A stretch of DNA of 64,000 nucleotides from Acidobacteriota bacterium (lineage in GTDB: Bacteria > Acidobacteriota > Vicinamibacteria > Vicinamibacterales > UBA2999), in the NCBI GenBank assembly GCA_947482665.1, contig CANKJK010000006.1, forward strand, positions 144,651-208,650, written 5' to 3'. A program made the position numbers and the translations under genes. This document shows positions 1 to 24,074 of the stretch, piece after piece (the first letter of the stretch is position 1; each line of letters starts with the position of its first letter). The notes beneath the pieces are model-generated. The model did not search any database. It was not told the origin of the DNA and saw only the letters and a program-made list of their open reading frames with translations.

Positions 1-322
1 CGAAGACCTCGAGGAGGCGCCCGACCTCTCGCCGCACGTCATCCCGCGCGTCCTGGTAGGGCGAGACGACCGCCGCGATGTTGGGCACGCCGCCCCTGGT
101 GAGCGTGCCGCACACGGCGCCGATCCGGCGAATGTTCGTCTCGCGGTCCTCCCGGCTGAATCCGAGGTCCCGGCTGAGGACCGCCCGTACCTCGTCACCG
201 TCGATGACCTCTGGCCGACAGTGCGTGCGTCCGGCGAGCACGTCAGCCAGGCGCCGCGCGACGGTGGTCTTTCCCGCGCCGGACAAGCCCGTCAGCCAGA
301 CTGTGAACCCCTGCTCCGTCAC
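1..322 (-). CDS. cysC: adenylyl-sulfate (APS) kinase, partial (3' end beyond left edge)
   Basis: Reverse-strand translation from GTG at 322..320 reads VTEQGFTVWLTGLSGAGKTTVARRLADVLAG...IDGDEVRAVLSRDLGFSREDRETNIRRIGAV...VSPYQDAR. This contains the P-loop GLSGAGKTT and the LGFS..DR.ENIRR block typical of CysC. The ORF runs off the window, so it is absent from the ORF track. Confidence 0.85.
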   Translation of the reverse strand, partial: MTEQGFTVWLTGLSGAGKTTVARRLADVLAGRTHCRPEVIDGDEVRAVLSRDLGFSREDRETNIRRIGAVCGTLTRGGVPNIAAVVSPYQDARDDVRREVGRLLEVF

Positions 323-506
323 GCTGCTGCCCCTCCTGAATAGCGTCGGTCCACCGACAGCCCCGTCACGACGCTGGACGTCCGACCACGCCCTGGCGCA
401 GTTTTCCGCCGCGAATTGACTCGCGCGTGCGGACGACCAGACGCCATCTGGAACCGTGGCAACATTGGTGCCGATGTCCCACCCGCCACGGCCCCTGGAG
501 ACGGTG

Positions 507-2243
507 ATGGAAGAGGCCGAGGTGCTCCGCGGCGCCGGACGCCTCGCGGAGGCCGCGGCCGCCTACGAACAGTGGCTGGCATCTGCCGAAGGGCCCGGCA
601 GGGCCGTGGCCCTGTTCAATCTCGGGGTGCTGCGCGCGGACCTGGGCGATCTGCCCGGGGCCGAGACCGCCTACGGGGACGCACTCACGGCCAATCCGCG
701 CCTCCACCAGGCCCGCATCAACGGGGGACTCGCGGCCGAGCGGCAGGGTCGCGATACCGATGCGGTGCGGCTGTGGCTCTCGGTCGCGGAGGCCGTTGCC
801 AATGGCGACCCGGACGCGGTGCCGCTGGCCGCCGTCGCGCTCAACCACGTGGGCCGGCTTCAGGAAGCCCGGCGGCACTTCGCGGCGGCCGAGTCCGCCC
901 TGGCCCACAGCCTCCGCCTCGACCCCACGCAGCCGGACGCGATTCAGCACTGGGTGCATCTGCGTCAGAAGCAGTGCACGTGGCCGGTCTACGCGCCGCC
1001 GCCCGGCCTGACAGTGAACCGCCTGATGGCCGCCACCTCGCCGCTCGCGATGCTGGCGCTGGCCGATGACCCGGCGATGCAGTGGTTTGCCGCGCAGTCC
1101 TTCGTGGCGCGGAAGTACCCGGCGCCGGCCGAGCGGCTCGGCCCCGGTCCGCGCGCGGCGGACGGCCGCCTGCGGATCGGCTACCTCTCGGGTGATCTCT
1201 GCACGCACGCCGTCGGGCTCCTGCTGCCGGACCTGATCGAGGCCCACGATCGCACGCGCGTGCACGTCACGGCCTTCGACTTCAGCCCGGAGGATCGGAC
1301 CGCGCACCGCGCGCGGCTCCTGGCCGCCTTTGATGACGTCGTGCCCGTGCACGCCCTCACGGATCGCGCGGCTGCCGACGCCATACGTGCGCGCGGCCTC
1401 GACGTGCTCATCGATCTGCATGGACTCAGCTCGGGCGCACGCCCAGGCATCCTCGCCTACCGGCCCGCACGGGTCATCGCGACCTATCTTGGCTTCATCG
1501 GCACGACCGCGCTGCCCTGGGTGGACGTCGTGGTCACCGACCGCTGGACCATGCCCGAGTCGGTGACGCCCTACATCACCGAGACGCCGCTCTACATCGA
1601 CGGCTCGATGATTCCGCTCGTGCACCAGCCGGTGGGACCGGTCCGCGTCTCCCGCGCCGACGTGGGTCTGCCGGAGGGCCGTGTCGTGGTGGCCTGCTTC
1701 AACAACATCTACAAGCTCACGCCCCAGATCTTCGGCGCCTGGTTGCGCCTGCTCCAGCGCGCGGACGAGACGGTGCTCTGGCTCCTCGACGACAACCCGT
1801 GGGCCACCGCCGCCCTGCGCGGGCACGCCCAGGCCGCCGGCATCGACCCGGCGCGGTTGGTGTTTCTCTCACGCGCCACCCACGCGGAGTACCGCGAGCG
1901 GCTCACGCTGGCCGATCTCTATCTGGATACCTTCCCCTACAACGCGGGCTCCACCGCGCGGGATGTCCTGGATGCGGGCGTGCCGCTGGTGACACTGGCC
2001 GGCCGCACACCGGTCTCACGCATGGCTGGCAGCCTCCTCCACGCCGCGGGCCTGGATGAACTGGTGGCCACCAGCTGGGAGAGCTACGAGCAGCTCGCGC
2101 TGCAGCTGGCCACGGACCCGGCGCGCCGGCTCGCCATCCGCGATCGGATGCGCGCGCTGGCGCCGACGTGGACCTCCGCGCCGGCGCGGCTGATGCGCAG
2201 CCTCGAAGATCAGCTCCTACAGCTGGTCTCCAAGGCCTCCTGA
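507..2243 (+). CDS. TPR-repeat protein with C-terminal GT41 (SPINDLY/OGT-family) glycosyltransferase domain
   Basis: The N-terminal region is TPR-like (AAAAYEQWL..., AETAYGDAL...). The C-terminal region (RIGYLSGDL..H, VVACFNNIYKLTPQIFGAWLRLL, DLYLDTFPYNAGSTARDVLDAGVPLVTL) matches the bacterial SPINDLY-type OGT layout. The ORF opens at GTG 456. I prefer ATG 507 because GGAGA lies 5-6 nt upstream. Confidence 0.75.
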   Translation: MEEAEVLRGAGRLAEAAAAYEQWLASAEGPGRAVALFNLGVLRADLGDLPGAETAYGDALTANPRLHQARINGGLAAERQGRDTDAVRLWLSVAEAVANGDPDAVPLAAVALNHVGRLQEARRHFAAAESALAHSLRLDPTQPDAIQHWVHLRQKQCTWPVYAPPPGLTVNRLMAATSPLAMLALADDPAMQWFAAQSFVARKYPAPAERLGPGPRAADGRLRIGYLSGDLCTHAVGLLLPDLIEAHDRTRVHVTAFDFSPEDRTAHRARLLAAFDDVVPVHALTDRAAADAIRARGLDVLIDLHGLSSGARPGILAYRPARVIATYLGFIGTTALPWVDVVVTDRWTMPESVTPYITETPLYIDGSMIPLVHQPVGPVRVSRADVGLPEGRVVVACFNNIYKLTPQIFGAWLRLLQRADETVLWLLDDNPWATAALRGHAQAAGIDPARLVFLSRATHAEYRERLTLADLYLDTFPYNAGSTARDVLDAGVPLVTLAGRTPVSRMAGSLLHAAGLDELVATSWESYEQLALQLATDPARRLAIRDRMRALAPTWTSAPARLMRSLEDQLLQLVSKAS

Positions 2244-2253: not shown

Positions 2254-5200
2254 CTAGGCGAGGCCCAGAATCGAGAGCTGGTCGGAGCTGAGCGCCGCCA
2301 CCTGCGCCGGGGTGAGCGCAGCGATCTGACCTGCGGTGAAGGCGGCCAGCTGCATCGTATTCATCGCAGCCACCTGCGCGGCGTGCATCGCCGCAATGCC
2401 CTCGAGCGTGATGAAGGACACCTGGCCCGGCGTGAAGCCGCCGATCTGCTCGTCACTGAGCACGCGGAGCTGCGCCGTGCGCAGTGCCGCGACACCCGTG
2501 TCGCTGATGGCGCCGAGCTGGTCGGACGAGAGGGCGCCGACCTGCGCGGTGGAGAGCGCGGCGACCTGTGCGGACTGGAGCGCCGCCACCTGTTCCGCGG
2601 AGAGCGCCTGCACGCCGGAGACGGTCAGCCCACCGATGGCCGATGTCGTCAGCGTCACGAGCTGCCCGGCGCTGATCGCCGCCACCTGGTCGGTGCCCAG
2701 CGCGGCCACCTGCTGACTCGCCAGCACGCCGAAGTCGTCCACACCCAACGCGCCGACCTGTTCCGCGGTGAGCGCGGCGACCTGGGTGGTCGTCAGCGCG
2801 GCAACCTGGGTCGTCGTGAACGCCTCGACCTGCTCGGCTGAGAGGGCGCGCAAGGCCGCCGTGCCGAGCGCATTCAGATCCGCCGTCTCGAACGCCGCCA
2901 CCTGTCCGGTCGACAGGCCCAGCACCTGCGCGGTCGAGAGTGTGGCGGCCTGCGCCGTCGTCAGCGCGGCCACGCCGCCGTTGCTGATGGCGCCCAGCTG
3001 GGCTGCGCTCAGCGCACCAATCTGGGCGGTGGTGAAGGCCGCCACCTGGTCGGTGCCGAGTGCGGCCACCTGCGCCGTCTCCAACGCCGCCACCTGACCC
3101 GTGCTCATGACGGCCAGGTCGACTGTCTCGATGGCCGCCACCTGACCGGTGGTGAGCGACGCGACCTGCTCGGTCGTGAGCGCCATCACCTGCGCCGTGG
3201 TCAGCGCCGGCACGACGCCGGCGTCGAGCGCGGCCACCTGGTCGCTGGTCAGGGCCGCAACCTGGCCGGTCGAGAGCGCGGCCACCTGCGCCGAGCCGAG
3301 GATGCCCACCTGGGCCGTGCCCAACGCGGCGATCTGCGTGGTCGTCAGGGCCGCGAGCTTCGTTGGCGAGAATCCGGACACCTGCGCCGTGGTGAGCGCC
3401 GCCACCTGATCGGTGTCGAGCGCGCCCAACTGCGTGGTGGAGAGTGCGCCGACGCTCGCCGTGCCCAGCGCGGCCACCTGCGCCGTGGTGAACGCGGCCA
3501 CCTGCGCCGTGCCCAGCGCCTGCACCTGCGCCGTCGTCAGGGCCGAGGCCTGTTCCGTCGTCAGGGCGGCAATCGACCCTGCCGGGAGCGCCGCCACGCC
3601 GGACGTGGACAGCCAGGTGATCTGGTCCGTCGACAGTGCCACCACCTGCGCGGTGGGCAGCACGCTCACCTGCGCGGTGCTGAGCGCGCCGATCTGGCCG
3701 GAGCCCAGCGCCGCGACCTGCGCGGTCGTCAGCGCATCGAGCTGGGTCGTCGTCAGCGCATTCAGCTGGCCACTGGTCAGCGCCGCTACCTGGTCGGTCG
3801 TCAGGGCCATCACCTGCCCGGTGCCCAGTGCCGTCAACGCGCTGGTCGTCAGGGCCGCCACGCCGTCGGTCGCCAGCGCGGCCAGCTGGGCCGTGGTCAG
3901 CACCACGGTCTGGTCCGAGGTCAGACCGGCCAGGTCCGCCGCCTCGAGATTGCCCATCTCGGCCACCGGCAAGGCTTCGATCTGCGCCGTGGTCAGGGCC
4001 GCGTATTGCGTCGAGGTCAGCGCGCGCAGCTGGTCGCTGGACAGGGCCGCGACCTGCGCGGTGGTCAGCGACACGAGGTTGTCCGTCGCAAGCCCATTCA
4101 CCTGCGCCGTGGTCAGGCCCGGCAGCTGCGTCGTCAGCAGCTGCGGCAGTTGCGCCGTGCCGAGCGCGTTCACCTGGCTCGGCGTCAGGGCCGCCACCTG
4201 GTCCGTCGAGAGCGCGTTCAGCTGCGCCGAACTCAGCACCGCGAGGGACGCCGAGGTCAGCGCCGCCACCTGATCGCTGATGAGCGCGGCCACCTGGGCC
4301 GTCGTCAGCGCACCGGTCTGATCCGTGGAGAGCGCGGCGACGTGCGCCGTGGTCAACGCCTGCATTTCATCGGTCGTCAGGGCCGCCACCTGCTCCGTCG
4401 CAAGGCGACCGAGCGTGACCGTCGTCAGCGCCGCCACCTGCGCGGTGTCGAGTCCAGCCACCTGCGCGGTGGTCAGGCTGGCCACCTGGTCGCTGGTGAA
4501 CGCGTTGAACTGCGCGGTGGTCAGCTCGCTCAAGCGTGACGCCGACAGCGTCGTCACCTGGTCGGTGCCGAGCGCCGCCACCTGGGTCGTCGTGAACGCC
4601 TGCAGCTGCGCGGTGGAGACCGCGTCGAGCTGGGCGCTGGTGAGCGCCTGCATCTGTCGCGTCGTCAGCGCGCGGAGCTGGTCTGTTTCCACGGCGACGA
4701 GCTGCGTCGTGGTCAGCGCACCAATCTGGTCAGTCCGGAACGCCGCGACCTGGTTCGTCGCGAAGGCCGTCAATTGCTCGGTCGTGAACCCGACCACCTG
4801 CGAGGTGGTCAGCCCCGCGAGGTCGAGCGTCTCAATGGCCCGGACCTGCGCGGTGCCCAGCGCGCCCAGCTGCGTCGTGGTCAGCGACGCCCACTGCGCG
4901 GCGGTCAGCGCGACCAGGTCGCGCGTTTCTACCGCGGCCATCTGCTCAGTGGTGAGCGCAGCCACCTGGTCGTTGCTGAGCGCCGCGTACTGCCGCTCGG
5001 TCAGCGCCACGACCTGGTCTGTCGTCAGCGCCGCCAGCTGCGTGGTGCTCAGTCCGGCAAGCGCCCCCGTGGCCAGTGCGCCGAGGTGCGTACTGTCGAG
5101 CGCGGTGAGCTGAGCCGTCGTCAGTGCCGCCACCTGGCCGGAGGTGAGCGCGGCCATGTCGACCGTCTCCATCGCGTCGAACTGGCCCGTGGTCACGACG

Positions 5201-8200
5201 GCGACCTGCTCGGGCGTCAGCGCGGCGACCTGCGCCGTGGAGAGCCCGATGATCTGCGCCGTCGTCAGCGCCTGGACCTGCGCGCTCCCCAGCGCCACGA
5301 CCTGCGCTGTCGAAAGACCCGGCAGGTTGATCGTCGGAATGGCGGCCACCTGATCGGTCGTCAGCGCCGCGACCTGGTCCGTGGCCAGCGCGGTCAGCTG
5401 CACCCGCCGCAGGGCGCCGATCTGGTCCGTCGTGAGCGCGGCCACCTGGGCCGTGCCCAGCGCGCGAATCTGCGCGGAGGCGAGCGTGCGCACGTCATCC
5501 GTCTCGAGGGCGGCTACCTGCTCGGTGGTCAGCGCGCCCACCTGGTCCGTCGTCAGGCTCCGCACCTGCCGGGTCGTGAGGGCCACCACCTGGTCGGTCG
5601 TCAGCGCCGCCACGCGGTCAAGATCCAGTGCGGCCACCTGTCCGGCGGTCAGCGCCGCGACCTGGGCTGTGGTGAACGCGGCGACCTGTTCGGTGGCGAG
5701 GCCATTGAGCTGGTCGGAGGTGAGCGCGGGAACGTCGGTGACCTCGAAGGCCGCGACCTGCCCCGTCGTCAGGGCCAGCAGCTGGCTGGTCGTCAGCGCG
5801 CGCACGCCCGTGCTGGTCAGCGCTACCACCTGATCCGTCGTCAGTACATTGACCTGTGTGGTGGTCAGCGCGGCGAGCATCGCGGTCCGGAAACCGGCCA
5901 CCTGTGCCGTCGTGAATGCCGTGATCTGATCCGTGGTGAAGGCCTGCACCTGCCCGGTTGTGAGCGCCGCCAGCGTCCCAATCGTCAGCGCCGCCACCTG
6001 GTCGGTCGCCAGGGCCGCCACCTGTGTCGTCGTCAGCGCGCGCACCTGGTCTGCCCGGAGCGCCGCCAGCTGGCCGCTCGCCAGGGCGGTAACCTGGCCG
6101 GTCGTCAGCGCCGCCACCTGCGCGGTCGCCAGGCCGCGCACCTGCGTGCTGAGCAGGCTCTGGACCTGCTCGGTGGTCAGGCTCTGGACCTGGTCGGTGG
6201 TGAGGGCAACCAGCTGGAACGACCTGAGCGTCTGGAGGTCGCCGGTCTCGATGGCCACCAACTGCGCCGTGCCGAGCGCACTCAACTGCGCGGTGCTCAG
6301 GGCGCCCACCTGATCGGCCGTCAAGGCCCCCACTTGGTCGCTCGACAGCGCGTTCAGGTCATCGGACTCGATGACAGAGACCTGCCGGACGCTGAAGCCC
6401 TGGATCTGGTCGGTGGTGAGGGCCGCGGCCTGAGCCGTCGAGAGCGCGATGACTTGCGTGCCCGTCAGACCGCGCATGGCCGAGGGGTCGAGCGCCGCGA
6501 TGCGGGCCGTGTCGAGCGCCGCGATCTGCGCCGTGGTCATGGCGCCGAGCTGGCGTGAGGTCCAGGCGGCCATGTGGTCCGTGGACAGGGCACCCATCAC
6601 CGCAGTGCGGATCGCCGCCACCTGGCTGACGTCGAGGGCCCGGAGTTGCGTGGAGTCAGTCGCGCCGAGCTGATCACTCGACAGCGCCGCCACCTGCGCG
6701 GTCCCGAACGCCCGCACCTGCGCCGTCGAGAGGGATGCCAGATGGCCCGTCGTGAGCGCCGACACCTGCGCGGTGGTCAGCACGCGCACCTGCGTGCTCC
6801 GGAGCGCACCGACCTGCCCCGTGCCCAGCCAGCCCACCTGGTCGGTCGTCAGGGCCTGAACCTGTGGGCTGGTGAAGGCCGCCACGCCGGCCGAGGACAG
6901 CGCCACCAGGTGGTCACTGTCGAGCGAGACCACCTGGGCGGTGGTCAGGTGAGCGGCCTGATCCGAGGTCAGTGCGCCGATCTGCTCCGTCGTCATGACA
7001 GCGAGACGCGAGGCCGCGATGGTCGCCACCTGGTCCGGCCGGAGTCCAGCCACCTGGTCGGTGGTGAGCGCGGTCAGCTGCTCTGTCGTCAGCGCCGCCA
7101 CCTGGGCCATCGTGAGGCTCTGCAGGCGGCTGCCCGTCAGGGCCGCCATCTGGTCCGTCGTCAGCGCGGCCACGGCCGTGGTCGACAGCAGCGCAAACTG
7201 CGCCTTGCGGAGGCTGCTCACCTGGTCGGTGGTCAACGCGTGAATCTGCGTGGTCGACAGGGCGTCCCACTGCGTCTTTTTGAGGGCCGCCAGGTCCGTG
7301 GTCTCAATGGCCGCCACCTGACCATCCGTCAGGGCCTGGACCTGCGCCGAGGTCAGACTCGCCGTCTGCGCGCTGGTCAGAGCGGCAATCTTGTCGGTCG
7401 ACAGACTCGCGACGTCCGCTGTGTCGATGGCGGCAATCTGGCGCTGCGTCAGGGCCGCCAGCTGCGACGTCTCCAATGCGTCGAAGGCATCGCTCGAGAG
7501 CGCCGCAATCTGGGCGTTGGTGAGACCGGCCAGCTGCGCTGGCGAGAGCGCCCGCAGCTGATCCGAGGTCAGCGCGGCGACGCCGGCGGTGCCCAGGGCC
7601 GCCAGCTTGCCCGGTGTCAGGCTGGCGATCTGATCGGTCGAGAGCGCCTGCACCTGCGCCGAAGTGAGCGACGCCATTTGCTGGGCCGACCAGGCGGCCA
7701 GATCCCCCGTCTCAAGGGCCGACACCTGCGACGTGGCGAGCGCCGCCACCTGGGCATAGGTGAAGGCCGCCATCTGCGGACGCGTGAGCGCGGCCAGCTG
7801 ACCCGCGCCCAGCGCCCGAAGGTCCGCGGTTTCGATCGCGCGGATCTGCGACGCCTTGAGGCTGGCCACCTGATCGGTCTCGAGCGCGCCCACCTGCGCA
7901 CTGGCGAGACCGGCAATCTGCGCGGTCGTCAGCGCCTGCATCTGGCCGGTGCTCAGCTGCGCGAGCTGGTCCGTGGCGAGGGCAGCCAGGGCCGCCGTGC
8001 CCAGCGAGGCAATCTGTCCAGTGCCAAGGGCGGCAATCTGGTCGGAGCCGAGTGCGTTGAGCTGGTCGCTTGAGAGCGTGGCCATCTGCGCCCGCGTCAA
8101 CGCGTTCAACTGCCCCGTCGAGAGGGCCTGGATCTGGTCCGTCGTGAGCACGGTCACGCCGCGAGTCGCCAGGGAGTGCAGGTGCCGGCTGCCCAGGCCC

Positions 8201-8370
8201 GCGATCGCACCGGTCGCAATCGAGGCGATCTGCGCGGTCGTCAGCGCCGCGACCTGGCGATTGCTGAGCGCGCCGATCTCGGCGGAGGTAAACGACGAGA
8301 TATCCGTCGTCGTGGAGACGGCCGGCGGTGTGGTGTAGAGGCCTCCGCCAAGCGGCGCGACGCTGCCCAC
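2254..8370 (-). CDS. giant octapeptide-repeat protein (2038 aa; consensus A-L-T-T-x-Q-V-A, about 250 tandem units)
   Basis: A single 6.1-kb ORF. The GTG start at 8370 is preceded by GGAGGA 8 nt upstream and by an in-frame TAA. A 33-aa non-repeat head is followed by octads to the last residue (..LSILGLA). I see no signal peptide. Confidence 0.85.
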   Translation of the reverse strand: MGSVAPLGGGLYTTPPAVSTTTDISSFTSAEIGALSNRQVAALTTAQIASIATGAIAGLGSRHLHSLATRGVTVLTTDQIQALSTGQLNALTRAQMATLSSDQLNALGSDQIAALGTGQIASLGTAALAALATDQLAQLSTGQMQALTTAQIAGLASAQVGALETDQVASLKASQIRAIETADLRALGAGQLAALTRPQMAAFTYAQVAALATSQVSALETGDLAAWSAQQMASLTSAQVQALSTDQIASLTPGKLAALGTAGVAALTSDQLRALSPAQLAGLTNAQIAALSSDAFDALETSQLAALTQRQIAAIDTADVASLSTDKIAALTSAQTASLTSAQVQALTDGQVAAIETTDLAALKKTQWDALSTTQIHALTTDQVSSLRKAQFALLSTTAVAALTTDQMAALTGSRLQSLTMAQVAALTTEQLTALTTDQVAGLRPDQVATIAASRLAVMTTEQIGALTSDQAAHLTTAQVVSLDSDHLVALSSAGVAAFTSPQVQALTTDQVGWLGTGQVGALRSTQVRVLTTAQVSALTTGHLASLSTAQVRAFGTAQVAALSSDQLGATDSTQLRALDVSQVAAIRTAVMGALSTDHMAAWTSRQLGAMTTAQIAALDTARIAALDPSAMRGLTGTQVIALSTAQAAALTTDQIQGFSVRQVSVIESDDLNALSSDQVGALTADQVGALSTAQLSALGTAQLVAIETGDLQTLRSFQLVALTTDQVQSLTTEQVQSLLSTQVRGLATAQVAALTTGQVTALASGQLAALRADQVRALTTTQVAALATDQVAALTIGTLAALTTGQVQAFTTDQITAFTTAQVAGFRTAMLAALTTTQVNVLTTDQVVALTSTGVRALTTSQLLALTTGQVAAFEVTDVPALTSDQLNGLATEQVAAFTTAQVAALTAGQVAALDLDRVAALTTDQVVALTTRQVRSLTTDQVGALTTEQVAALETDDVRTLASAQIRALGTAQVAALTTDQIGALRRVQLTALATDQVAALTTDQVAAIPTINLPGLSTAQVVALGSAQVQALTTAQIIGLSTAQVAALTPEQVAVVTTGQFDAMETVDMAALTSGQVAALTTAQLTALDSTHLGALATGALAGLSTTQLAALTTDQVVALTERQYAALSNDQVAALTTEQMAAVETRDLVALTAAQWASLTTTQLGALGTAQVRAIETLDLAGLTTSQVVGFTTEQLTAFATNQVAAFRTDQIGALTTTQLVAVETDQLRALTTRQMQALTSAQLDAVSTAQLQAFTTTQVAALGTDQVTTLSASRLSELTTAQFNAFTSDQVASLTTAQVAGLDTAQVAALTTVTLGRLATEQVAALTTDEMQALTTAHVAALSTDQTGALTTAQVAALISDQVAALTSASLAVLSSAQLNALSTDQVAALTPSQVNALGTAQLPQLLTTQLPGLTTAQVNGLATDNLVSLTTAQVAALSSDQLRALTSTQYAALTTAQIEALPVAEMGNLEAADLAGLTSDQTVVLTTAQLAALATDGVAALTTSALTALGTGQVMALTTDQVAALTSGQLNALTTTQLDALTTAQVAALGSGQIGALSTAQVSVLPTAQVVALSTDQITWLSTSGVAALPAGSIAALTTEQASALTTAQVQALGTAQVAAFTTAQVAALGTASVGALSTTQLGALDTDQVAALTTAQVSGFSPTKLAALTTTQIAALGTAQVGILGSAQVAALSTGQVAALTSDQVAALDAGVVPALTTAQVMALTTEQVASLTTGQVAAIETVDLAVMSTGQVAALETAQVAALGTDQVAAFTTAQIGALSAAQLGAISNGGVAALTTAQAATLSTAQVLGLSTGQVAAFETADLNALGTAALRALSAEQVEAFTTTQVAALTTTQVAALTAEQVGALGVDDFGVLASQQVAALGTDQVAAISAGQLVTLTTSAIGGLTVSGVQALSAEQVAALQSAQVAALSTAQVGALSSDQLGAISDTGVAALRTAQLRVLSDEQIGGFTPGQVSFITLEGIAAMHAAQVAAMNTMQLAAFTAGQIAALTPAQVAALSSDQLSILGLA
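2257..8271 (-). repeat. in-frame 24-nt periodic coding repeat array (about 250 units)
   Basis: The plus strand shows a recurring unit of the type GGCCACCTGCGCGGTGGTCAGCGC. The protein parses into 8-residue units with no register break that I could find by eye. Confidence 0.85.
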
Positions 8371-8632
8371 TTAGCGGGTCCTCCCGGACGGCCCGCCGAC
8401 ACACGTGTCGGTACACCGGTCCACCGGGCACTCTCGGCCGGCGTACCGGGCCTGTTTTCCACAGGAACCCGACACGAATGCGAACGAACCTCTCACCTGA
8501 GGGGGCAGAGACCAAGATCCCTGCCACCTGTACGGCCCGCGCTTGCCGGCCTGCTCCTGCTCGACGAGAATGACGCCTCCGGCGCCCGCGTCACTCCGGT
8601 GCGCGCGCCCGGTCGAAGAGGAGTTGTCCGTG

Positions 8633-20152: not shown

Positions 20153-21993
20153 GTTCCGTGCCGCGCCCGCGCCACCGTCTGACGAGGCTGACGATCGCTG
20201 TGGTGGCACTGGCCTGCCTGCTGGGCCCGCGCGCCGCGTTCGCGCAACTCGGGGCGCTGGTGTCGCCAGGCCGGCTCCATCGGACGCATGCGGCCCTCGA
20301 GGGCCTCGACAAGTGCCTGCAGTGCCACTCGAAGGGGCGCCAGGTGTCTGTCGAGAAGTGCCTCTCCTGCCACAAGCCCGTGGCCGAACGCATCGCCCTG
20401 AAGAAGGGCATCCACCGTGCGGCAGCCGGGGACTGCGTGCGGTGCCACGTGGAGCATGCCGGAGCGGATAGTCAACTGCGGCCCTTCGATCAATCGAAGT
20501 TCGATCACGCCCGCGACACGGGCTGGGCCATCGACGGCCTCCACGCACCACTGGCGGCCAAGTGCGTGACCTGTCACAAGGAGCGTTCGTTCCTGACAGC
20601 GGGGACGACGTGCATCTCGTGCCATGCGGATCCGCACAAGCCATCCCTCGGCGCACAGTGCACGACGTGTCACAGCACGAGCGCGAAGTTCAAGGCCGCC
20701 ACCGAAACATTTGATCACGCGCGCGCGAGGTTCCGGCTCTCCGGGGCGCATGCCAAGGCGGCGTGCACCGCGTGCCACGTCAAGGGTCAATACAAGGGCG
20801 TCGCCTTCGAGACCTGCGCAAGCTGCCACAAGGACCCGCACCAGTCGCGGATGGGCACCGCCTGCCAGTCCTGCCATTCGGACACCTCGTGGCGGACGGG
20901 CAAGCTCGATCACGCCAGGACGGCCTTCCCCCTGCGCGGCAAGCACGCGGCCGTGGACTGCGTGAAGTGCCACGTCAAGCCGGCGGCGGTCGTAAAAGTG
21001 CGGGCAGACACGTGTGCGGTGTGCCACACGGACCCGCACCAGGGCGGATTCAAGCAGGACTGCGTGGCCTGCCACACGGAGACGACCTTCCAGAAGGGCA
21101 CGTTCGACCACGGCACCACGAAGTTCGCGCTGGCCGACAAGCATGGGGGCCTCACCTGCGTGACGTGCCACAAGGCCGTGCAGGGGAAGAACCTGGACTA
21201 CCGGGGCCTGAAGACCACGTGCGTCTCATGCCACGCGGACGTGCATCAGGGCGAGCTGGGCGCCACCTGTGAGAGTTGCCACTCGGCCAGGACGTGGGAC
21301 GTCAAGGCCTACACGCACCTCAAGCCGCGTAGCTTCTTTGATGGACGCCACCAGCCGTTGACCTGCACGCAGTGCCATCCCAGCACGCTGCAGCCCACGC
21401 GGACCTCCGCGGCGGTGCCCGCCTTGCGCGTCGGCTTCCCGGGAACGGCCACGGCCTGCGTGGCGTGCCACCAGGATGTGCATCTGGGCCAGCTCAAGAC
21501 GGACTGCGAGCGGTGCCACACGATCGACACACCGAAGTTTGCCGTCGCGGTGTTTGACCATGGCCGCACGGCGTTTCCGCTCACAGGGAAACACGGCCCC
21601 GTGAAGTGCGAGGGGTGCCACAAGACCGAGACCGGCGCCTTCCCGTCCGGCCATGGTTCGGCGCGGAAGTTCACTGGCGTCGGCACAGCCTGCGTGGCCT
21701 GCCATGTGGATCCCCACGCCGGGCAACTCGATCGCGCCTGCGAGACCTGCCACACCGTCGACCGCTTTACGCTGCCGGCCTACGTGCATCGGAACGCGAA
21801 GGGACTCAAGAGCTTCTTCTCGGGCCAACACGCTTCCGCGAAGTGCGCGGCGTGTCACAAGCCATCGCCCGCGGACCGCCCTGACAGGCGGGTGCTGGCC
21901 AGCTACGCCACCGTCACGACGTGCACGTCGTGCCACACCGACATTCACCGCGGCGCGCTCGGGCCCGCCTGCAGCAATTGTCACAAGCCATGA
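20149..21993 (+). CDS. multihaem cytochrome c, 24 CXXCH motifs (eight c7/c3-like triheme modules)
   Basis: GTG 20149 overlaps the upstream TGA. Signal peptide ..LLGPRAAFAQ. I counted 24 CXXCH by eye, with a recurring unit FDH..F.L.G.H...CxxCH...CxxCH.D(P/V)H....G..CxxCH. Confidence 0.9.
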   Translation: MSSVPRPRHRLTRLTIAVVALACLLGPRAAFAQLGALVSPGRLHRTHAALEGLDKCLQCHSKGRQVSVEKCLSCHKPVAERIALKKGIHRAAAGDCVRCHVEHAGADSQLRPFDQSKFDHARDTGWAIDGLHAPLAAKCVTCHKERSFLTAGTTCISCHADPHKPSLGAQCTTCHSTSAKFKAATETFDHARARFRLSGAHAKAACTACHVKGQYKGVAFETCASCHKDPHQSRMGTACQSCHSDTSWRTGKLDHARTAFPLRGKHAAVDCVKCHVKPAAVVKVRADTCAVCHTDPHQGGFKQDCVACHTETTFQKGTFDHGTTKFALADKHGGLTCVTCHKAVQGKNLDYRGLKTTCVSCHADVHQGELGATCESCHSARTWDVKAYTHLKPRSFFDGRHQPLTCTQCHPSTLQPTRTSAAVPALRVGFPGTATACVACHQDVHLGQLKTDCERCHTIDTPKFAVAVFDHGRTAFPLTGKHGPVKCEGCHKTETGAFPSGHGSARKFTGVGTACVACHVDPHAGQLDRACETCHTVDRFTLPAYVHRNAKGLKSFFSGQHASAKCAACHKPSPADRPDRRVLASYATVTTCTSCHTDIHRGALGPACSNCHKP

Positions 21994-24074
21994 CGAGGGC
22001 CACCATGACGCGCCTGCTCCGTCTTCTCACGTTGCTGTCCGGCGTCTGGCTGATGGCTGCGCCAGCGTCAGCGCAGTTCGACACGCCGAATCGCCAGTTC
22101 CACGACAAAACCACCTTCCGGCTCGAGGGTAAGCACCTCTCGACGCCCTGTGCGTCCTGCCACCTGAACGAGGTGTACAAGGGCACGCCGCGGCAGTGTG
22201 TCGACTGCCATTGGGTCCGCCGGCAGGATGACCGGTTCAAGCTCCAACTCGGCCGCCAGTGCGAGCAGTGCCACCGGCCCACGGCGTGGACAGGCGCGCG
22301 GTTCGACCATGCCGCCTTGACGTCCATGCCACTCGGCGGCGCGCACCGGCAACTGGCCTGTCAGACCTGCCACAAGAACGGCGACTTCCGCGGCGTACAG
22401 GGTGGCGGCTGCGTGAGTTGTCATCTGAAGGACTACCAGGCGGCCCGCACGCCGAACCACGTCACCGCTGCGTTCCCCACGACCTGCGAGGTCTGCCACC
22501 GGGTCAATGACACCTCATTCCACCAGGCTGGGTTCAACCACGCGGCGGCGTTTCCCCTGGTCGGCCCGCACGCCACGCAGACCTGCGCGGCCTGCCACGC
22601 CAACGGCGTCTACAAGGGCACGGCCCGCGACTGTGTGGGCTGCCACCGCACGGACTACAACCGGACCACGACCCCGAATCACGCCGCCGCTGGCTTCTCG
22701 ACCGACTGCCAGTCGTGCCACAAGGCGACAGAAAGCAGTTTCCGCGGGGCCGGGTTCAACCACACGGCCGTCTTCGCGCTCGTTGGCCAGCACGCGACGC
22801 AGACCTGCACGGCCTGTCACGTCAACAACGTCTACAAGGGCACGGCCCGCGACTGCGTGGGCTGCCACCGCACAGCCTACGACCGGACCACCACGCCCAA
22901 TCACGCCGCCGCCGGCTTCTCGACCGACTGTCAGTCGTGCCATAAGGCGACTGAGAGCAGCTTCCGCGGGGCCGGGTTCAACCACGCGGCCGTCTTCGCG
23001 CTGGTTGGCCAGCACGCCACGCAGACCTGCACGGCCTGCCACATCAACAACGTCTACAAGGGCACGGCGCGCGACTGCGTGGGCTGCCACCGCACGGCCT
23101 ACGACCGGACCACCACGCCCAATCACGCCGCGGCCGGCTTCTCCACCGACTGTCAGTCGTGCCATAAGGCGACGGACAGCAGCTTCCGCGGCGCGAGCTT
23201 CAATCACGCAGCCGTCTTCCCCTTGGTCGGCCAGCACGCCTCACAGACGTGCACCGCCTGCCACGTCAACAGCGTCTTCAAAGGCACGGCCCGCGACTGC
23301 GTGGGTTGTCACCGAGCCGCCTACAACAAGACGAGTGCGCCCAATCACGCCGCCGCTGGCTTCTCCACCGACTGTCAGTCGTGCCATAAAGCGACGGACA
23401 GCAGCTTCCGCGGCGCAAGCTTCAATCACGCGGCCGTCTTCCCCCTGGTTGGCCAGCACGCGACGCAAACCTGCGCGGCCTGCCACGCCAACGGCGTCTA
23501 CAAGGGCACCGCACGCGACTGCGTGGGTTGTCACCGCTCGGTCTACGACAAGACCAGCGCGCCCAATCACGCCGCCGCCGGCTTCTCCACCGACTGTCAG
23601 TCGTGCCACAAGGCGACGGACAACAGCTTCCGCGGCGCGAGCTTCAATCACGCGGCCGTCTTCCCCCTGGTTGGCCAGCACGCCTCGCAGACCTGCACCG
23701 CCTGTCACGCCAACGGCGTCTACAAGGGCACCGCCCGTGACTGCCTCGGCTGTCACCGCTCGAAGTACGACCGGACCAGCTCGCCGAATCACGCCGCCGC
23801 CGGCTTCTCCACCGACTGTCAGTCGTGCCACAGGGCCACCGACTCGTCGTGGGGACAGGGCACCTTCAATCACCGGTTCCCGATCGCATCCGGGCGCCAC
23901 AAGGCGCCGTGCTCGAGCTGCCATCAGAGCGGCACGGCCTACGCCAACTTCACCTGTCTGACGTGCCATGAGCATGCCCAGGCGTCGATGGATAGCAAGC
24001 ATCGAGGCCGCAATGGTTATCGCTATGAGTCACGCGCCTGTTACAGCTGCCACCCGACCGGGCGCGGCGACTAG
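21990..24074 (+). CDS. multihaem cytochrome c, 27 CXXCH motifs (nine triheme modules, six near-identical)
   Basis: ATG 21990 overlaps the upstream TGA (ATGA). Signal peptide ..WLMAAPASAQ. I counted 27 CXXCH by eye, with unit FNH..F.LVGQH...CxACH.N.VYKGTARDCVGCHR..Y..T..PNHAAAGFSTDCQSCH. Confidence 0.9.
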   Translation: MTRATMTRLLRLLTLLSGVWLMAAPASAQFDTPNRQFHDKTTFRLEGKHLSTPCASCHLNEVYKGTPRQCVDCHWVRRQDDRFKLQLGRQCEQCHRPTAWTGARFDHAALTSMPLGGAHRQLACQTCHKNGDFRGVQGGGCVSCHLKDYQAARTPNHVTAAFPTTCEVCHRVNDTSFHQAGFNHAAAFPLVGPHATQTCAACHANGVYKGTARDCVGCHRTDYNRTTTPNHAAAGFSTDCQSCHKATESSFRGAGFNHTAVFALVGQHATQTCTACHVNNVYKGTARDCVGCHRTAYDRTTTPNHAAAGFSTDCQSCHKATESSFRGAGFNHAAVFALVGQHATQTCTACHINNVYKGTARDCVGCHRTAYDRTTTPNHAAAGFSTDCQSCHKATDSSFRGASFNHAAVFPLVGQHASQTCTACHVNSVFKGTARDCVGCHRAAYNKTSAPNHAAAGFSTDCQSCHKATDSSFRGASFNHAAVFPLVGQHATQTCAACHANGVYKGTARDCVGCHRSVYDKTSAPNHAAAGFSTDCQSCHKATDNSFRGASFNHAAVFPLVGQHASQTCTACHANGVYKGTARDCLGCHRSKYDRTSSPNHAAAGFSTDCQSCHRATDSSWGQGTFNHRFPIASGRHKAPCSSCHQSGTAYANFTCLTCHEHAQASMDSKHRGRNGYRYESRACYSCHPTGRGD
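22533..23864 (+). repeat. six tandem 222-bp (74-codon) repeats inside the 27-haem cytochrome gene
   Basis: The TTCAACCAC / TTCAATCAC (FNH) codons that open each unit occur at 22533, 22755, 22977, 23199, 23421 and 23643, exactly 222 nt apart. Long identical nucleotide runs are shared between units. Confidence 0.9.

What the first reader, a model, noticed from the sequence alone, without database searches (positions are those of the whole stretch)
2254..8370. 2038-aa protein made of about 250 uninterrupted octapeptide repeats (A-L-T-T-x-Q-V-A) with no register break
A 33-residue head (MGSVAPLGGGLYTTPPAVSTTTDISSFTSAEIG) is followed by repeats that parse, by eye, into 8-residue units all the way to the C-terminus. 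Numerically, 2005 residues equals 250 x 8 + 5, and the protein ends ..LSILGLA.

Leu (or Phe/Ile/Met) is almost invariant at position 2, Thr/Ser at positions 3-4, Gln at position 6, Val/Ile/Leu at position 7 and Ala at positions 8 and 1. I found no insertion or deletion in about 2000 residues, which implies strong structural selection for a continuous solenoid or fibre.

A variant unit, A-(I/L/V)-E-T-x-D-L-x, recurs irregularly.

The protein has no signal peptide, no recognisable secretion, anchoring or enzymatic domain, and almost no Gly or Pro in the repeats. An 8-residue period fits neither heptad nor hendecad coiled coils, nor the penta-, hexa- or nonapeptide solenoid families I know of. 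I do not recognise the family.
Basis: seen in the sequence. Interest (0 to 1): 0.8.

Follow-up and report, generated by a model that had tools for sequence, protein, structure and literature searches.

The report
Giant helical-screw repeat protein with glycosyltransferase partner
This is a real gene for a 204-kDa protein made of 250 perfectly in-register 8-residue "ALTTAQ" repeats, predicted to fold into one long rod of tiny helices (a fold so far solved only for a designed protein), and it is inherited across several bacterial phyla together with a neighbouring sugar-adding enzyme that most likely decorates it.

Summary
Window 2254-8370 (minus strand, GTG start) encodes a 2038-aa protein with 250 octapeptide units and no register break. 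The array is old and diverged: the longest exact DNA repeat is 26 nt. The identical protein is on 11 contigs, so it is not an artefact.

The family is not unknown. It is Pfam PF20080 "ALTTAQ repeat" (1414 bits), with thousands of natural members but no literature.

AlphaFold2 (pLDDT 94.5) gives one 5-6-residue helix per unit, with Thr3 as N-cap. This is the "alpha-helical screw" fold, described in 2025 as novel for designed proteins. The designed protein HeliScrew4 (PDB 9zem) is 44% identical to these repeats.

New here: the gene forms a conserved two-gene module with an adjacent TPR-GT41 (OGT-like) glycosyltransferase whose catalytic residues are intact.
- 20 of 28 GT41-selected loci carry the repeat gene, across Acidobacteriota, Burkholderiales and Alphaproteobacteria.
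- 28 of 80 repeat-selected metagenome loci carry GT41.
- The module recurs beside HlyB/HlyD type I secretion genes and inside flagellin loci.
- Repeat number and the positions of 14 variant units are conserved between phyla.

Best reading: an exported, O-glycosylated rigid rod. Glycosylation, export route and function are inferred, not shown.

The parts
2254..8370 (-). Gene for the 2038-aa (203.6 kDa) ALTTAQ-repeat protein, stop codon included
   Evidence: ORF and translation. GC3 is 0.91 with a coding-type GC1/GC2 pattern. PF20080 scores 1414 bits in 74 stretches. The identical product is on 11 contigs.
8320..8370 (-). N-terminal head, residues 1-17 (MGSVAPLGGGLYTTPPA). It is not hydrophobic and carries no signal peptide.
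   Evidence: The maximum Kyte-Doolittle 9-residue mean in the first 45 aa is 1.11. The head is conserved in acidobacterial orthologues (MSPITSIGGGLY.., MGSVFPASGSLY..).
8272..8319 (-). Residues 18-33: two degenerate in-phase repeat units (VSTTTDIS, SFTSAEIG). The motif TTTD(I/V)SSFTS is conserved across phyla.
   Evidence: Phase scan and head comparison.
2272..8271 (-). 250 octapeptide units (residues 34-2033) with consensus A-L-T-T-x-Q-V-A. Each unit is predicted to form one 5-6-residue alpha-helix plus a 2-3-residue linker. There are 14 variant (I/L)-E-T-x-D-L units at unit indices 18, 23, 35, 40, 79, 84, 105, 115, 129, 139, 143, 180, 214 and 224.
   Evidence: register. (AF2). (variant units sit at the same index in orthologues from two phyla).
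2257..2436 (-). Conserved C-terminal tail (last 60 aa, still in 8-residue register), ending ..AALSSDQLSILGLA. It is a candidate C-terminal cap and/or secretion signal.
   Evidence: Alignment of 13 orthologue tails, with invariant Q/A/T/L/G columns and a terminal LG(L/M/F). AF2 continues the screw to the end, with lower pLDDT of 75-83.
8379..8385 (-). Shine-Dalgarno-like GGGAGGA, 8 nt upstream of the GTG start
   Evidence: Read directly from the sequence.
456..2243 (+). Convergent neighbour: a TPR + GT41 (O-GlcNAc-transferase-family) glycosyltransferase. It is 595 aa from the GTG at 456; gene callers start it at 507, giving 578 aa. Its stop codon lies 10 bp from the stop of the repeat gene.
   Evidence: Pfam Glyco_transf_41 at 208 bits plus TPRs. 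Full-length match to XcOGT 2jlb at E = 7e-66, and matches to human OGT and SPINDLY. UDP-binding and catalytic residues are conserved. It is adjacent to an ALTTAQ gene in 20/28 related genome loci.
1..322 (-). 5' part of an APS kinase gene. Beyond the window edge it starts a cluster of APS kinase, two Sulfotransfer_2 genes and a second APS kinase. This accessory cluster is specific to this lineage and may or may not belong to the system.
   Evidence: Gene table of L001/L002. No homologues were found in 108 other loci.

Best explanation
The ORF is a real, ancient gene for a repeat-only member of the ALTTAQ-repeat family (Pfam PF20080).

Fold. Each octapeptide forms one short alpha-helix. Thr/Ser at position 3 is the N-cap, Gln at position 6 is the N3 residue of a capping box, and Leu2 and Val7 form the core. 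The 250 units wind into a single uninterrupted 'alpha-helical screw' solenoid. The result is a rigid, net-acidic rod, roughly 55-100 nm long by my estimate. More than 190 Thr/Ser residues at the helix N1 position should lie along its surface.

Module. The gene works as a two-gene module with the adjacent cytoplasmic TPR-GT41 (OGT-like) glycosyltransferase. The enzyme most likely uses its TPR domain to hold the still-unfolded repeat chain, and O-glycosylates Thr/Ser before export. FlmG does this for flagellins, Synechococcus Ogt for pilin and HMW1C for HMW1.

Export. The modified chain is then exported without a Sec signal. The most likely route is a HlyB/HlyD-type type I system that recognises the conserved C-terminal tail. 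The flagellar export apparatus is the alternative. Outside the cell the chain folds into a long glycosylated surface fibre or spacer.

Shown: gene reality, repeat architecture, family membership, conserved synteny, and conserved catalytic residues. Predicted with high confidence: the fold. Inferred: that the protein is the enzyme's substrate, that it is exported, by which route, and what the rod does.
For: Reality and architecture.

Family: PF20080 at 1414 bits. A profile of the repeats finds 4728 / 2014 / 583 cluster representatives at E <= 1e-3 / 1e-10 / 1e-30 among 1.84 billion proteins.

Fold:
- AF2 on residues 34-353 gives pLDDT 94.5 and pTM 0.82, with one helix per unit.
- AF2 on the last 280 aa, without an alignment, gives pLDDT 89.8 with the same pattern to the C-terminus.
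- PDB 9zem HeliScrew4 matches at E = 3.6e-19 with 44/100 identical residues and a unit consensus of ALTPEQIA.
- Its crystal structure confirmed the predicted 8-mer helical screw, with S/T/D/N N-caps and a hydrophobic core (bioRxiv 10.64898/2025.12.04.691947).

Constraint:
- Window, L011 (Acidobacteriota) and L014/L016 (Burkholiales) orthologues are 2038, 2035 and 2046 aa.
- They align with only 1-residue indels.
- On-register identity is 0.59 and 0.47, against about 0.36 off-register.
- The 14 variant units sit at the same index in all four.

GT41 link:
- 20/28 loci found through GT41 carry an adjacent ALTTAQ gene. They span Acidobacteriota, Burkholderiales, Acetobacteraceae and Azospirillum, in convergent and co-directional arrangements.
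- From the repeat side, 28/80 metagenome loci carry GT41, including 8/8 members of the window's tail clade that have downstream sequence.
- GT41 occurs with flagellar genes only where ALTTAQ is also present: 3 loci with both, 0 with flagellar genes alone.

Enzyme competence: the equivalents of hOGT K842, Y841, D925, H901 and H558 are conserved.

O-linked rather than N-linked: 461 Ser/Thr and zero N-x-S/T sequons.

Export:
- A HlyB-type ABC and a HlyD adaptor (TIGR01843, 303 bits against a cutoff of 209) lie next to GT41/ALTTAQ in L020, L022, L027, L028, L029 and L031.
- In other proteins, PF20080 repeats are fused to RTX, TPS/ESPR, autotransporter-repeat and Ig-like domains of secreted proteins.
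- The C-terminal tail is conserved.

Precedents: PMC7591256 (FlmG), PMC9306852 (Ogt-PilA), PMC3983070 and PMC3012730 (HMW1C).
Against: - No secretion genes lie in the 64-kb window or in the 26-kb extended locus.
- The T1SS linkage is seen only in alphaproteobacterial relatives, which have a different C-terminal tail (..ALFH/ALFV).
- The window's closest proteobacterial orthologues sit in flagellar loci instead.
- The protein has no RTX motifs.
- Some other repeat-only PF20080 proteins (P0004, P0029) have no GT41 within 8 kb. 38 of 80 repeat-selected loci show none of the three linkages, although many have short flanks.
- XcOGT itself is not linked to any ALTTAQ gene.
- OGT-type enzymes act on extended peptides, so a folded screw would not be a substrate. 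Passage of a heavily glycosylated chain through a T1SS has, to my knowledge, no precedent.
- There is no expression, glycosylation or localisation data.
- The rod length is my own estimate.
Confidence: 0.45

Rival explanations
1. The rod is a flagellum-associated component. It is O-glycosylated like flagellin and exported through the flagellar type III apparatus by way of its unstructured Ser/Thr/Gly-rich N-terminal head, not through a T1SS.
For: - The window's closest proteobacterial orthologues (L014, L015, L016, L045) lie in the arrangement flgK-flgL-fliD-flaG-fliC...GT41-ALTTAQ.
- About 12 metagenome loci show FlaG-flagellin-ALTTAQ(2444 aa)-ALTTAQ(1272 aa) on one strand.
- In L101 the ALTTAQ->GT41 pair sits between a flagellin gene and flaF/flbT.
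- Overall, 15/80 repeat-selected loci carry flagellar genes.
- Flagellar substrates lack Sec signals and are glycosylated in the cytoplasm by TPR-GT-B enzymes (PMC7591256).
- The heads (MSISLNLGASNL.., MATINNLSTG.., MSPITSIGGGLY) loosely resemble the N-termini of flagellar axial proteins. This is my own reading and was not tested.
Against: - No flagellar gene lies in the window, in L001, or in any of the 15 acidobacterial loci.
- The protein has no Flagellin_N/C or hook-associated domains.
- Alphaproteobacterial members start directly with repeats and sit beside T1SS genes.
- A conserved extreme C-terminus fits T1SS better.
- Proximity to flagellin may only reflect a shared glycosylation island.
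Confidence: 0.2
2. The protein is not exported. It is a cytoplasmic structural rod, ruler or scaffold, possibly regulated by OGT-type glycosylation as eukaryotic OGT substrates are.
For: - There is no signal peptide, no secretion genes in the window, and no RTX motifs.
- GT41 enzymes are cytoplasmic (PMC9306852, PMC7591256).
- Exact conservation of 250 units between phyla looks like a length constraint.
- Designed HeliScrew proteins are soluble monomers in E. coli.
Against: - T1SS genes are co-located and overlap GT41 in alphaproteobacterial loci.
- The module recurs in flagellin loci.
- PF20080 repeats in other proteins are overwhelmingly combined with domains of secreted proteins.
- All known bacterial TPR-GT-B/GT41 enzyme-neighbour pairs modify exported filament or adhesin proteins.
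Confidence: 0.2
3. The GT41 neighbour does not act on the repeat protein. The adjacency reflects co-regulation or a shared island, and the enzyme modifies another target (flagellin, pilin or a cytoplasmic protein), while the rod stays unglycosylated.
For: - No biochemical evidence links the two.
- XcOGT, the closest solved homologue, has no ALTTAQ neighbour.
- 8 of 28 GT41-clade loci show no ALTTAQ gene in the fetched DNA.
- About 12 flagellin-ALTTAQ loci show no GT41 within 3-4 kb.
Against: - The pair is kept in at least four lineages, in two orientations, while everything else around it changes.
- GT41 never occurs with flagellar genes in the absence of ALTTAQ.
- All 8 tail-clade metagenome loci with downstream sequence have it.
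- The substrate is 22.6% Ser/Thr, placed at regular intervals.
Confidence: 0.15
4. The array is an assembly artefact, or a non-coding or spurious ORF in high-GC DNA.
For: High-GC DNA yields many long spurious ORFs. Repeats can collapse or expand in short-read assemblies.
Against: - The longest exact internal repeat is 26 nt, and units are only 55% identical at DNA level.
- The identical product is on 11 contigs, in several ENA and Logan assemblies.
- GC3 is 0.91 with a coding pattern.
- Full-length orthologues at 46-59% identity in other phyla have conserved length and register.
Confidence: 0.01

Closest known systems
Pfam PF20080, ALTTAQ repeat
   Same: The window protein matches the model at 1414 bits in 74 stretches, so it is a member. 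The family numbers thousands of clusters in public data.
   Different: - Pfam defines only a sequence repeat. I found no paper, structure or function for it.
- Most members combine the repeats with other domains such as RTX, TPS, calpain, G8 or DUF4347.
- This protein is repeat-only, with 250 units, and belongs to a clade with a conserved head, a conserved tail and a GT41 partner.
Designed 8-mer 'alpha-helical screw' (HeliScrew4, PDB 9zem; bioRxiv 10.64898/2025.12.04.691947)
   Same: - 8-residue period with one short helix per unit.
- Ser/Thr N-cap at position 3, with Leu at position 2 and Ile/Val at position 7 in the core.
- Unit consensus ALTPEQIA against ALTTxQVA.
- 44% identity over 100 aa, E = 3.6e-19.
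   Different: - HeliScrew4 is a 120-aa (about 12-15 unit) protein designed with Chroma, with Pro at N1.
- The window protein is natural, has 250 units, and has Thr/Ser at N1.
- The preprint reports only one natural PDB example (7QLR), calls the fold 'dark matter', and mentions neither Pfam nor ALTTAQ.
- The units per turn and the handedness of the natural protein were not measured here.
FlmG-flagellin (Caulobacter) and Ogt-PilA (Synechococcus elongatus): soluble TPR + GT-B/GT41 O-glycosyltransferases that modify an exported filament protein
   Same: - Enzyme architecture: N-terminal TPRs and a C-terminal GT-B domain, about 595 aa. FlmG is 596 aa.
- Cytoplasmic action on Ser/Thr before export.
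- In S. elongatus the substrate gene lies within a few genes of ogt. FlmG's TPR domain binds the substrate (PMC7591256; PMC9306852).
   Different: - The proposed substrate here is a 2038-aa repeat rod, not a flagellin or pilin.
- Homology of the window enzyme to FlmG was not tested, because I had no FlmG sequence.
- The donor sugar is unknown.
HMW1C-HMW1 (Haemophilus influenzae) and related adhesin-glycosyltransferase pairs
   Same: A GT41-family cytoplasmic enzyme, encoded beside a very large secreted repetitive protein, modifies it at many sites before secretion (PMC3983070, PMC3012730).
   Different: - HMW1C is an N-glycosyltransferase that acts on N-x-S/T sequons and lacks canonical TPRs.
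- The window protein has zero such sequons, and its enzyme is OGT/XcOGT-like with TPRs.
- HMW1 is a Sec/TPS-secreted beta-helix, not an alpha-helical screw.
XcOGT (Xanthomonas campestris XCC0866; PDB 2jlb, 2vsn)
   Same: It is the closest solved homologue of the neighbour enzyme. The match is full-length at E = 7e-66, and the UDP-binding and catalytic residues are shared.
   Different: XcOGT lies in a hemA-prfA context with no ALTTAQ gene within 10 kb. The window enzyme belongs to a different clade that is dedicated to ALTTAQ neighbours.
Giant RTX/T1SS adhesins (LapA, SiiE and MpIBP type; from my own knowledge)
   Same: - Very large, acidic and repeat-built, with no Sec signal.
- Related ALTTAQ-only genes sit beside HlyB/HlyD genes.
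- Many other PF20080 proteins carry RTX repeats.
   Different: - The window protein has no RTX nonapeptides, no Ig-like extender domains and no N-terminal retention module.
- Its extender would be an alpha-helical screw.
- No T1SS genes lie in this window.

Membership tests
Pfam PF20080 ALTTAQ repeat | Score above the curated gathering threshold of the family HMM | tested here: met
   1413.9 bits against a cutoff of 26.4, with 74 matched stretches.
8-mer alpha-helical screw (HeliScrew-type super-secondary structure) | 8-residue sequence period with hydrophobic core positions and an N-cap S/T/D/N | tested here: met
   Lag-8 identity is 0.39 (z = 37.6). Position 2 is hydrophobic in 249/250 units and position 7 in 239/250. 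Position 3 is N-cap-competent (S/T/D/N/G) in 194/250.
8-mer alpha-helical screw (HeliScrew-type super-secondary structure) | One short alpha-helix per unit, joined by 2-3-residue linkers into a continuous superhelix | tested here: met
   This is a prediction only. AF2 gives pLDDT 94.5 and pTM 0.82, with 40 helices in 40 units, and the same pattern in the C-terminal 280 aa. Sequence similarity to the crystallised HeliScrew4 is E = 3.6e-19.
8-mer alpha-helical screw (HeliScrew-type super-secondary structure) | 2.5-4.0 units per superhelical turn and clockwise winding, confirmed by an experimental structure | not testable with these tools
Foldseek against the PDB did not return 9zem, and its best hit, mesothelin, has a TM-score of only 0.33-0.42.
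Substrate of an OGT-type (GT41) O-glycosyltransferase | A cognate GT41 enzyme with intact catalytic/UDP-binding residues and a TPR domain is encoded with it | tested here: met
   Pfam GT41 plus TPR. The equivalents of K842, Y841, D925, H901 and H558 are conserved. The adjacency is conserved in 20/28 and 28/80 loci.
Substrate of an OGT-type (GT41) O-glycosylransferase | Demonstrated O-glycan on Ser/Thr of the protein | not testable with these tools
   This needs mass spectrometry or lectin blots. Only acceptor availability is shown: 461 Ser/Thr.
HMW1C-type N-glycosylated adhesin | N-x-S/T acceptor sequons | tested here: not met
   There are zero N-x-S/T sequons in 2038 aa.
RTX / type I secretion substrate | GGxGxD nonapeptide (HemolysinCabind) repeats near the C-terminus | tested here: not met
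   No GG.G.D motif and no PF00353 hit.
RTX / type I secretion substrate | A dedicated ABC transporter and membrane-fusion protein encoded nearby | tested here: inconclusive
   Not present in the window or in L001. Present beside related ALTTAQ/GT41 genes in six alphaproteobacterial loci.
RTX / type I secretion substrate | An uncleaved C-terminal secretion signal | tested here: inconclusive
   The last 60 aa or so are conserved across 13 orthologues and end in LG(L/M/F). No predictor or assay for T1SS signals was available.
Two-partner-secretion exoprotein (FHA/TpsA) | N-terminal TPS (haemagglutination activity) domain and a Sec/ESPR signal | tested here: not met
   No PF05860 or PF13018 hit in this protein, although both occur in other PF20080 proteins. 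The head is not hydrophobic.
Flagellin / flagellar axial protein | Flagellin_N and Flagellin_C (or hook-associated) terminal helical domains | tested here: not met
   No such Pfam hits. Flagellin genes are neighbours in related loci, not homologues.
Coiled coil (heptad or hendecad) | A 7- or 11-residue hydrophobic period in a continuous helix | tested here: not met
   Self-identity is 0.11 at lag 7 and 0.08 at lag 11, against 0.39 at lag 8. AF2 breaks the chain into 5-6-residue helices.

The most novel reading that the evidence does not exclude
Repeat-only ALTTAQ giants are a previously unrecognised class of exported, heavily O-glycosylated 'helical-screw' rods.
- They are the natural and abundant embodiment of a fold recently reported as almost absent from nature.
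- Their length is held constant like a ruler: 250 units are conserved between phyla.
- They are the dedicated native substrates of a widespread clade of bacterial OGT-like enzymes.
- In many Proteobacteria they are built or deployed together with the flagellum.
Probability: 0.3. Interest if true: 0.8.

Novelty: new variant of a known kind. Interest (0 to 1): 0.62.

Why it matters
1. It shows that the 'alpha-helical screw', published in 2025 as a new super-secondary structure from protein 'dark matter', has a large natural family. That family has thousands of clusters, with arrays of up to 250 or more units. Designers gain natural sequence statistics, and structural biologists gain an obvious target.

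2. It offers a concrete candidate substrate class for bacterial OGT-like (GT41) enzymes, whose native targets are mostly unknown. The hypothesis can be tested in a cultured organism: Azospirillum sp. RU38E carries two GT41 genes, HlyB/HlyD and an ALTTAQ gene in one cluster.

3. All 250 repeats are positionally orthologous between Acidobacteriota and Burkholderiales. Long repeat arrays usually evolve by gain, loss and homogenisation, so this points to a function that depends on exact length or on specific units.

4. The recurrent placement in flagellin loci hints at an undescribed flagellum- or surface-associated fibre in freshwater and soil bacteria.

Tried and rejected
- Sub-threshold Pfam/NCBIfam hits (CAAP1, EF-hand_11, Sigma70_r4_2, DUF4351, PRTRC_C). 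I rejected them as echoes of the 'LTxxQ(I/V)AxL' helix motif.
- Foldseek of the AF2 model against the PDB. Only weak alpha-solenoid matches appeared (mesothelin TM 0.33-0.42, importins, PUF). It did not retrieve 9zem, so it was uninformative.
- Is XcOGT, the model bacterial OGT, paired with an ALTTAQ gene? No. In Xanthomonas and Stenotrophomonas it follows hemA-prfA.
- Is GT41 next to every repeat-only PF20080 protein? No. P0004 and P0029 lack it, and P0045's contig ends too soon to tell. These proteins have a C-terminal non-repeat domain.
- Is the sulfotransferase/APS-kinase cluster part of the conserved system? No homologues were found in 108 other loci.
- Is GT41 really a flagellin enzyme? 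I rejected this as the general explanation, because no locus has GT41 with flagellar genes and without ALTTAQ.
- Literature. 'ALTTAQ' returned 0 papers. 'PF20080' returned only unrelated catalogue numbers. 7QLR papers say nothing about the protein's biology. The bacterial-calpain review does not mention the repeats.
- A first off-register control was invalid because of head-length differences. I redid it on alignment columns.
I repeated it with 6 sequences.
- A double-glycine leader in the head (LGGG). I rejected this because it is not conserved outside Acidobacteriota and is far too short.

Full report
OBSERVATION

The ORF at window 2254-8370 lies on the minus strand. It starts with GTG immediately after an in-frame TAA, has a GGGAGGA motif 8 nt upstream, and encodes 2038 aa, 203.6 kDa. 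Its GC1/GC2/GC3 values of 0.69/0.54/0.91 are those of a real gene in this 67-71% GC genome.

From residue 34 the protein parses into 250 octapeptides plus 5 residues.
- Self-identity is 0.39 at lag 8, against 0.04-0.12 at other lags and 0.118 +/- 0.007 in shuffles (z = 37.6).
- Every 24-residue window beyond residue 33 scores best in phase 0.
- Position 2 is hydrophobic in 249/250 units and position 7 in 239/250.
- Gln occupies position 6 in 190 units.
- Ser/Thr occupy position 4 in 195 units and position 3 in 158.

The 'variant' unit (I/L)-E-T-x-D-L is real. There are 14 copies, and E3 and D6 co-occur in 13.

- The gene is on the minus strand.
- The last 16 residues of the 'head' are two degenerate in-phase units.
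- Gly makes up 6% of the repeats, so it is not 'almost none'.

The array is not an artefact.
- The longest exact internal DNA repeat is 26 nt.
- The 24-nt units are on average 55% identical, and none is duplicated.
- TRF sees only 60-76% matching.
- The identical 2038-aa product is called on 11 contigs, in several ENA and Logan assemblies, two of them longer than 1 Mb.

WHAT IT IS

The family is already described. Pfam PF20080 'ALTTAQ repeat' matches at 1414 bits in 74 stretches. NCBIfam has nothing above threshold.

No paper in the library contains 'ALTTAQ', and the hits for 'PF20080' are unrelated catalogue numbers.

A profile built from six in-register 320-aa segments finds 4728 cluster representatives at E <= 1e-3. 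It finds 2014 at <= 1e-10 and 583 at <= 1e-30, among 1.84 billion proteins.

In other proteins the repeats are combined with various other domains:
- RTX repeats
- TPS and ESPR domains of two-partner secretion
- autotransporter repeats
- Ig-like and Calx-beta domains
- calpain-type proteases
- G8 and DUF4347

These are mostly hallmarks of large secreted proteins. The window protein has no second domain.

FOLD

I noted that T3-x-x-Q6 is a helix capping box, and AlphaFold2 bears this out.
- Residues 34-353, with a six-row self-alignment, give mean pLDDT 94.5 and pTM 0.82.
- There are exactly 40 helices of 4-6 residues (positions 4 to 8/1), separated by 2-3-residue linkers at positions 1-3.
- The last 280 residues, folded without an alignment, give the same pattern to the C-terminus (best model pLDDT 89.8).
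- In that model one pair of units is fused into a longer helix, and the conserved tail has lower confidence, 75-83.

A sequence search of the PDB finds one significant match: 9zem, 'HeliScrew4' (E = 3.6e-19). It shares 44/100 identical residues, and its units read ALTPEQIA, ALSPDKIA and so on.

The source preprint (bioRxiv 10.64898/2025.12.04.691947) found '8-mer alpha-helical screws' among random repeats.
- It describes a hydrophobic core, S/T/D/N N-caps, Pro at N1 and 2.5-4.0 units per turn.
- It calls them a novel super-secondary structure from 'dark matter', with a single natural PDB example (7QLR).
- It confirmed the prediction with a 2.2 Å crystal structure.
- It mentions neither Pfam nor natural families.

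The window protein is thus a natural, 250-unit version of that fold.

Foldseek against the PDB was uninformative; the best hit, mesothelin, has a TM-score of 0.33-0.42. I had no access to the model coordinates. The rod length of 55-100 nm is my own estimate, from 2.5-4 units per turn and a pitch of about 1 nm.

NEIGHBOURHOOD AND RELATED LOCI

The window is a Gram-negative chromosome segment with OmpA, porins, TonB-type barrels, a multihaem cytochrome and two-component systems. It contains no secretion system.

Convergent with the repeat gene, and 10 bp from its stop codon, is a TPR + GT41 glycosyltransferase (window 456/507-2243).
- It matches XcOGT over its full length (E = 7e-66), and also matches human OGT and SPINDLY.
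- It retains the residues whose mutation inactivates hOGT: K842 within FNNIYK, Y841, D925 and H901. K898 is replaced by R.
- It also retains the equivalent of hOGT H558.

Relatives of this enzyme in GTDB genomes place the window in Acidobacteriota, order Vicinamibacterales (82% identity to the best hit).

Of the 28 loci retrieved through GT41, 20 have an ALTTAQ-repeat gene directly beside it:
- It is convergent in Acidobacteriota and Burkholderiales.
- It is co-directional (ALTTAQ then GT41) in Acetobacteraceae.
- In Azospirillum there are two GT41 paralogues.

An all-against-all comparison of neighbouring ORFs shows that nothing else is conserved across these lineages.

I ran the reverse test by searching metagenome contigs with the clade's C-terminal tail. 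It returned 80 ALTTAQ loci from many clades.
- 28 carry GT41 within 7 kb.
- These include all 8 loci of the window's tail clade that have downstream sequence.
- They also include other repeat-only giants of 2100-2950 aa, with GT41 150-300 bp downstream on the same strand.

The linkage is not universal.
- P0004 and P0029, which have an N-terminal array and a C-terminal globular domain, have no GT41 within 8 kb.
- XcOGT itself sits after hemA-prfA, with no ALTTAQ gene nearby.

LINEAGE-SPECIFIC ADDITIONS

(a) Six alphaproteobacterial loci carry a HlyB-type ABC transporter.
- TIGR01846 matches over its full length at 542-606 bits, below the trusted cutoff of 725.
- Four of the six also carry a HlyD adaptor (TIGR01843 at 291-303 bits, cutoff 209).
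- In L029 and L031 the ABC gene follows GT41 in operon-like fashion.
- In L027/L028 the transporter is divergent from a repeat-only gene of about 1590 aa.

(b) Flagellar loci.
- Burkholderiales loci L014-L016 and L045, which hold the window's closest proteobacterial orthologues, have this order: flgK-flgL-fliD-(flaG)-fliC (724 aa), then glycosylation genes, then GT41 and ALTTAQ.
- About 12 metagenome loci have FlaG-flagellin-ALTTAQ(2444 aa)-ALTTAQ(1272 aa).
- L101 has flagellin | ALTTAQ->GT41 | FlaF-FlbT.

(c) L020 and L029 add dTDP-sugar and aminotransferase genes.

(d) Only the window's own lineage adds two APS kinases and two Sulfotransfer_2 genes beyond GT41.

Across the 28 GT41-selected loci, flagellar genes occur in 3, always with ALTTAQ and never without it. 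GT41's constant partner is therefore the repeat protein, not flagellin.

EVOLUTIONARY CONSTRAINT

Full-length orthologues are 2038 aa (window), 2035 aa (L011, Acidobacteriota) and 2046 aa (L014 and L016, Burkholderiales).
- They align in 2049 columns, with only single-residue indels in the repeat body.
- On-register identity is 0.59 and 0.47, against 0.34-0.39 at shifts of 1-6 units.
- 12-14 of the 14 variant I-E-T-x-D-L units sit at the same unit index in all four.

Each repeat is therefore individually orthologous across phyla, and the count of 250 is conserved. The module has evidently moved horizontally.

Other relatives are shorter: 1785, about 1590, 1563, 1471, 740, 722 and 406 aa. One has two in-frame stops.

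The last 60 residues or so form a conserved in-register tail. It ends ..LS.DQL.ALG(L/M/F) in Acidobacteriota and Burkholderiales, and ..ALFH/ALFV/ALYR in Alphaproteobacteria.

MECHANISM (INFERRED)

The closest working analogues are soluble cytoplasmic enzymes that modify a neighbour-encoded protein, destined for export, at many Ser/Thr or Asn sites before secretion:
- FlmG has TPR and GT-B domains. Its TPR domain binds flagellin (PMC7591256).
- Synechococcus Ogt has TPR and GT41 domains. Its substrate is PilA1, encoded two genes away (PMC9306852).
- HMW1C is a GT41-family enzyme. Its substrate is HMW1 (PMC3983070, PMC3012730).

By analogy I propose the following. The TPR-GT41 enzyme engages the unfolded repeat chain and O-glycosylates Thr/Ser. 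Position 4 (N1) and position 3 (N-cap) offer 353 acceptors. There are no N-x-S/T sequons, which excludes the HMW1C mode. The chain is then exported without a Sec signal and folds outside the cell into a long glycosylated rod.

The export route is unresolved.
- T1SS is favoured by the alphaproteobacterial gene clusters, the conserved extreme C-terminus and the RTX associations of the wider family.
- The flagellar export apparatus is favoured by the context of the window's closest proteobacterial orthologues.
- A cytoplasmic role cannot be excluded, because the window and its 26-kb extension encode neither system.

What the rod does is unknown: adhesin, spacer, sheath or flagellum-associated fibre are all possible. 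The conserved length and the conserved variant units suggest that exact geometry matters.

COMPARISON, NOVELTY, VERDICT

The protein is a member of PF20080; that membership test was run and met. It is predicted to adopt the HeliScrew-type fold. It is not an RTX, TPS, flagellin or coiled-coil protein, since those defining features were tested and not met. It cannot be an HMW1C-type N-glycosylation substrate.

Four points appear to be new, as no paper in the library addresses them:
- the identification of ALTTAQ repeats as the natural counterpart of the helical screw
- the conserved ALTTAQ-GT41 module
- its recurrent placement with T1SS and flagellin genes
- the positional orthology of 250 repeats between phyla

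I rate it a new variant of a known kind: a glycosyltransferase plus a giant repetitive exported protein, built on an unusual fold. Interest is 0.62.

Confidence by claim:
- Gene and architecture: about 0.99.
- Fold: about 0.85.
- Functional link to GT41: about 0.7.
- Being its substrate: about 0.5.
- Export: about 0.55.
- The whole chain of inference: 0.45.

Noticed in passing
window 1-322 (-), continuing in L001 18049-20611: Next to the GT41 gene there is a cluster of APS kinase, two paralogous Sulfotransfer_2 genes and a second APS kinase (a PAPS supply plus sulfotransferases). It occurs only in the window's own lineage, with no homologues in 108 related loci. It may sulfate the glycan or the protein, or it may be unrelated.
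   Followed up: partly
window 21921-24074 (+) and 24093-25412 (+): A 717-aa multihaem cytochrome with cytochrome c7/c3 and MtrC/MtrF-like domain hits is followed by a 439-aa protein with no Pfam hit. This may be an extracellular electron-transfer module in a Vicinamibacterales genome.
   Followed up: no
window 36870-38672 (-): An unusual fusion of a response-regulator receiver domain, a trypsin-like serine protease and an RHS repeat (600 aa), lying next to hybrid histidine kinases.
   Followed up: no
L035 8919-11707 and L036 8914-11701: In Xanthomonas and Stenotrophomonas the gene for XcOGT starts at or within a few bases of the end of prfA (release factor 1), in a hemA-prfA-OGT arrangement. 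From my own knowledge, prmC occupies that slot in E. coli. This may be a clue to the native role of XcOGT.
   Followed up: no
L048 2891-14098 and L053 2604-13799; also L014 20660-21730 and L016 20715-21725: Two repeat-only ALTTAQ genes lie in tandem (about 2444 aa, then about 1272 aa), directly after flaG and a flagellin gene of about 707 aa. A second ALTTAQ ORF also lies at the edge of the Burkholderiales loci.
   Followed up: partly
L012 4335-9296 (-): The orthologue in this 'Solibacteraceae' MAG is interrupted by two in-frame stop codons (974 + 489 + 188 aa). It could be a pseudogene, a sequencing error or a read-through case.
   Followed up: no
L025 6464-8491, L026 4571-6538, L030 9051-9628: In three Acetobacteraceae loci the GT41 gene is followed not by an ALTTAQ gene but by a conserved 655-675-aa protein with no Pfam hit. 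It may be an alternative partner or substrate.
   Followed up: no
window 2254-8370 (-), whole protein: There is not a single N-x-S/T sequon, despite 20 Asn and 461 Ser/Thr. The protein is net acidic (D+E = 133, K+R = 54) and has only 4 Tyr and no Cys.
   Followed up: partly
window 2254-8370 (-), unit indices 18-224; L011, L014, L016: The 14 acidic variant units (I-E-T-x-D-L) keep their exact index between phyla. In the AF2 model, unit 18 has a shorter helix and a 4-residue linker. They could be ion-binding sites, kinks or recognition marks.
   Followed up: partly
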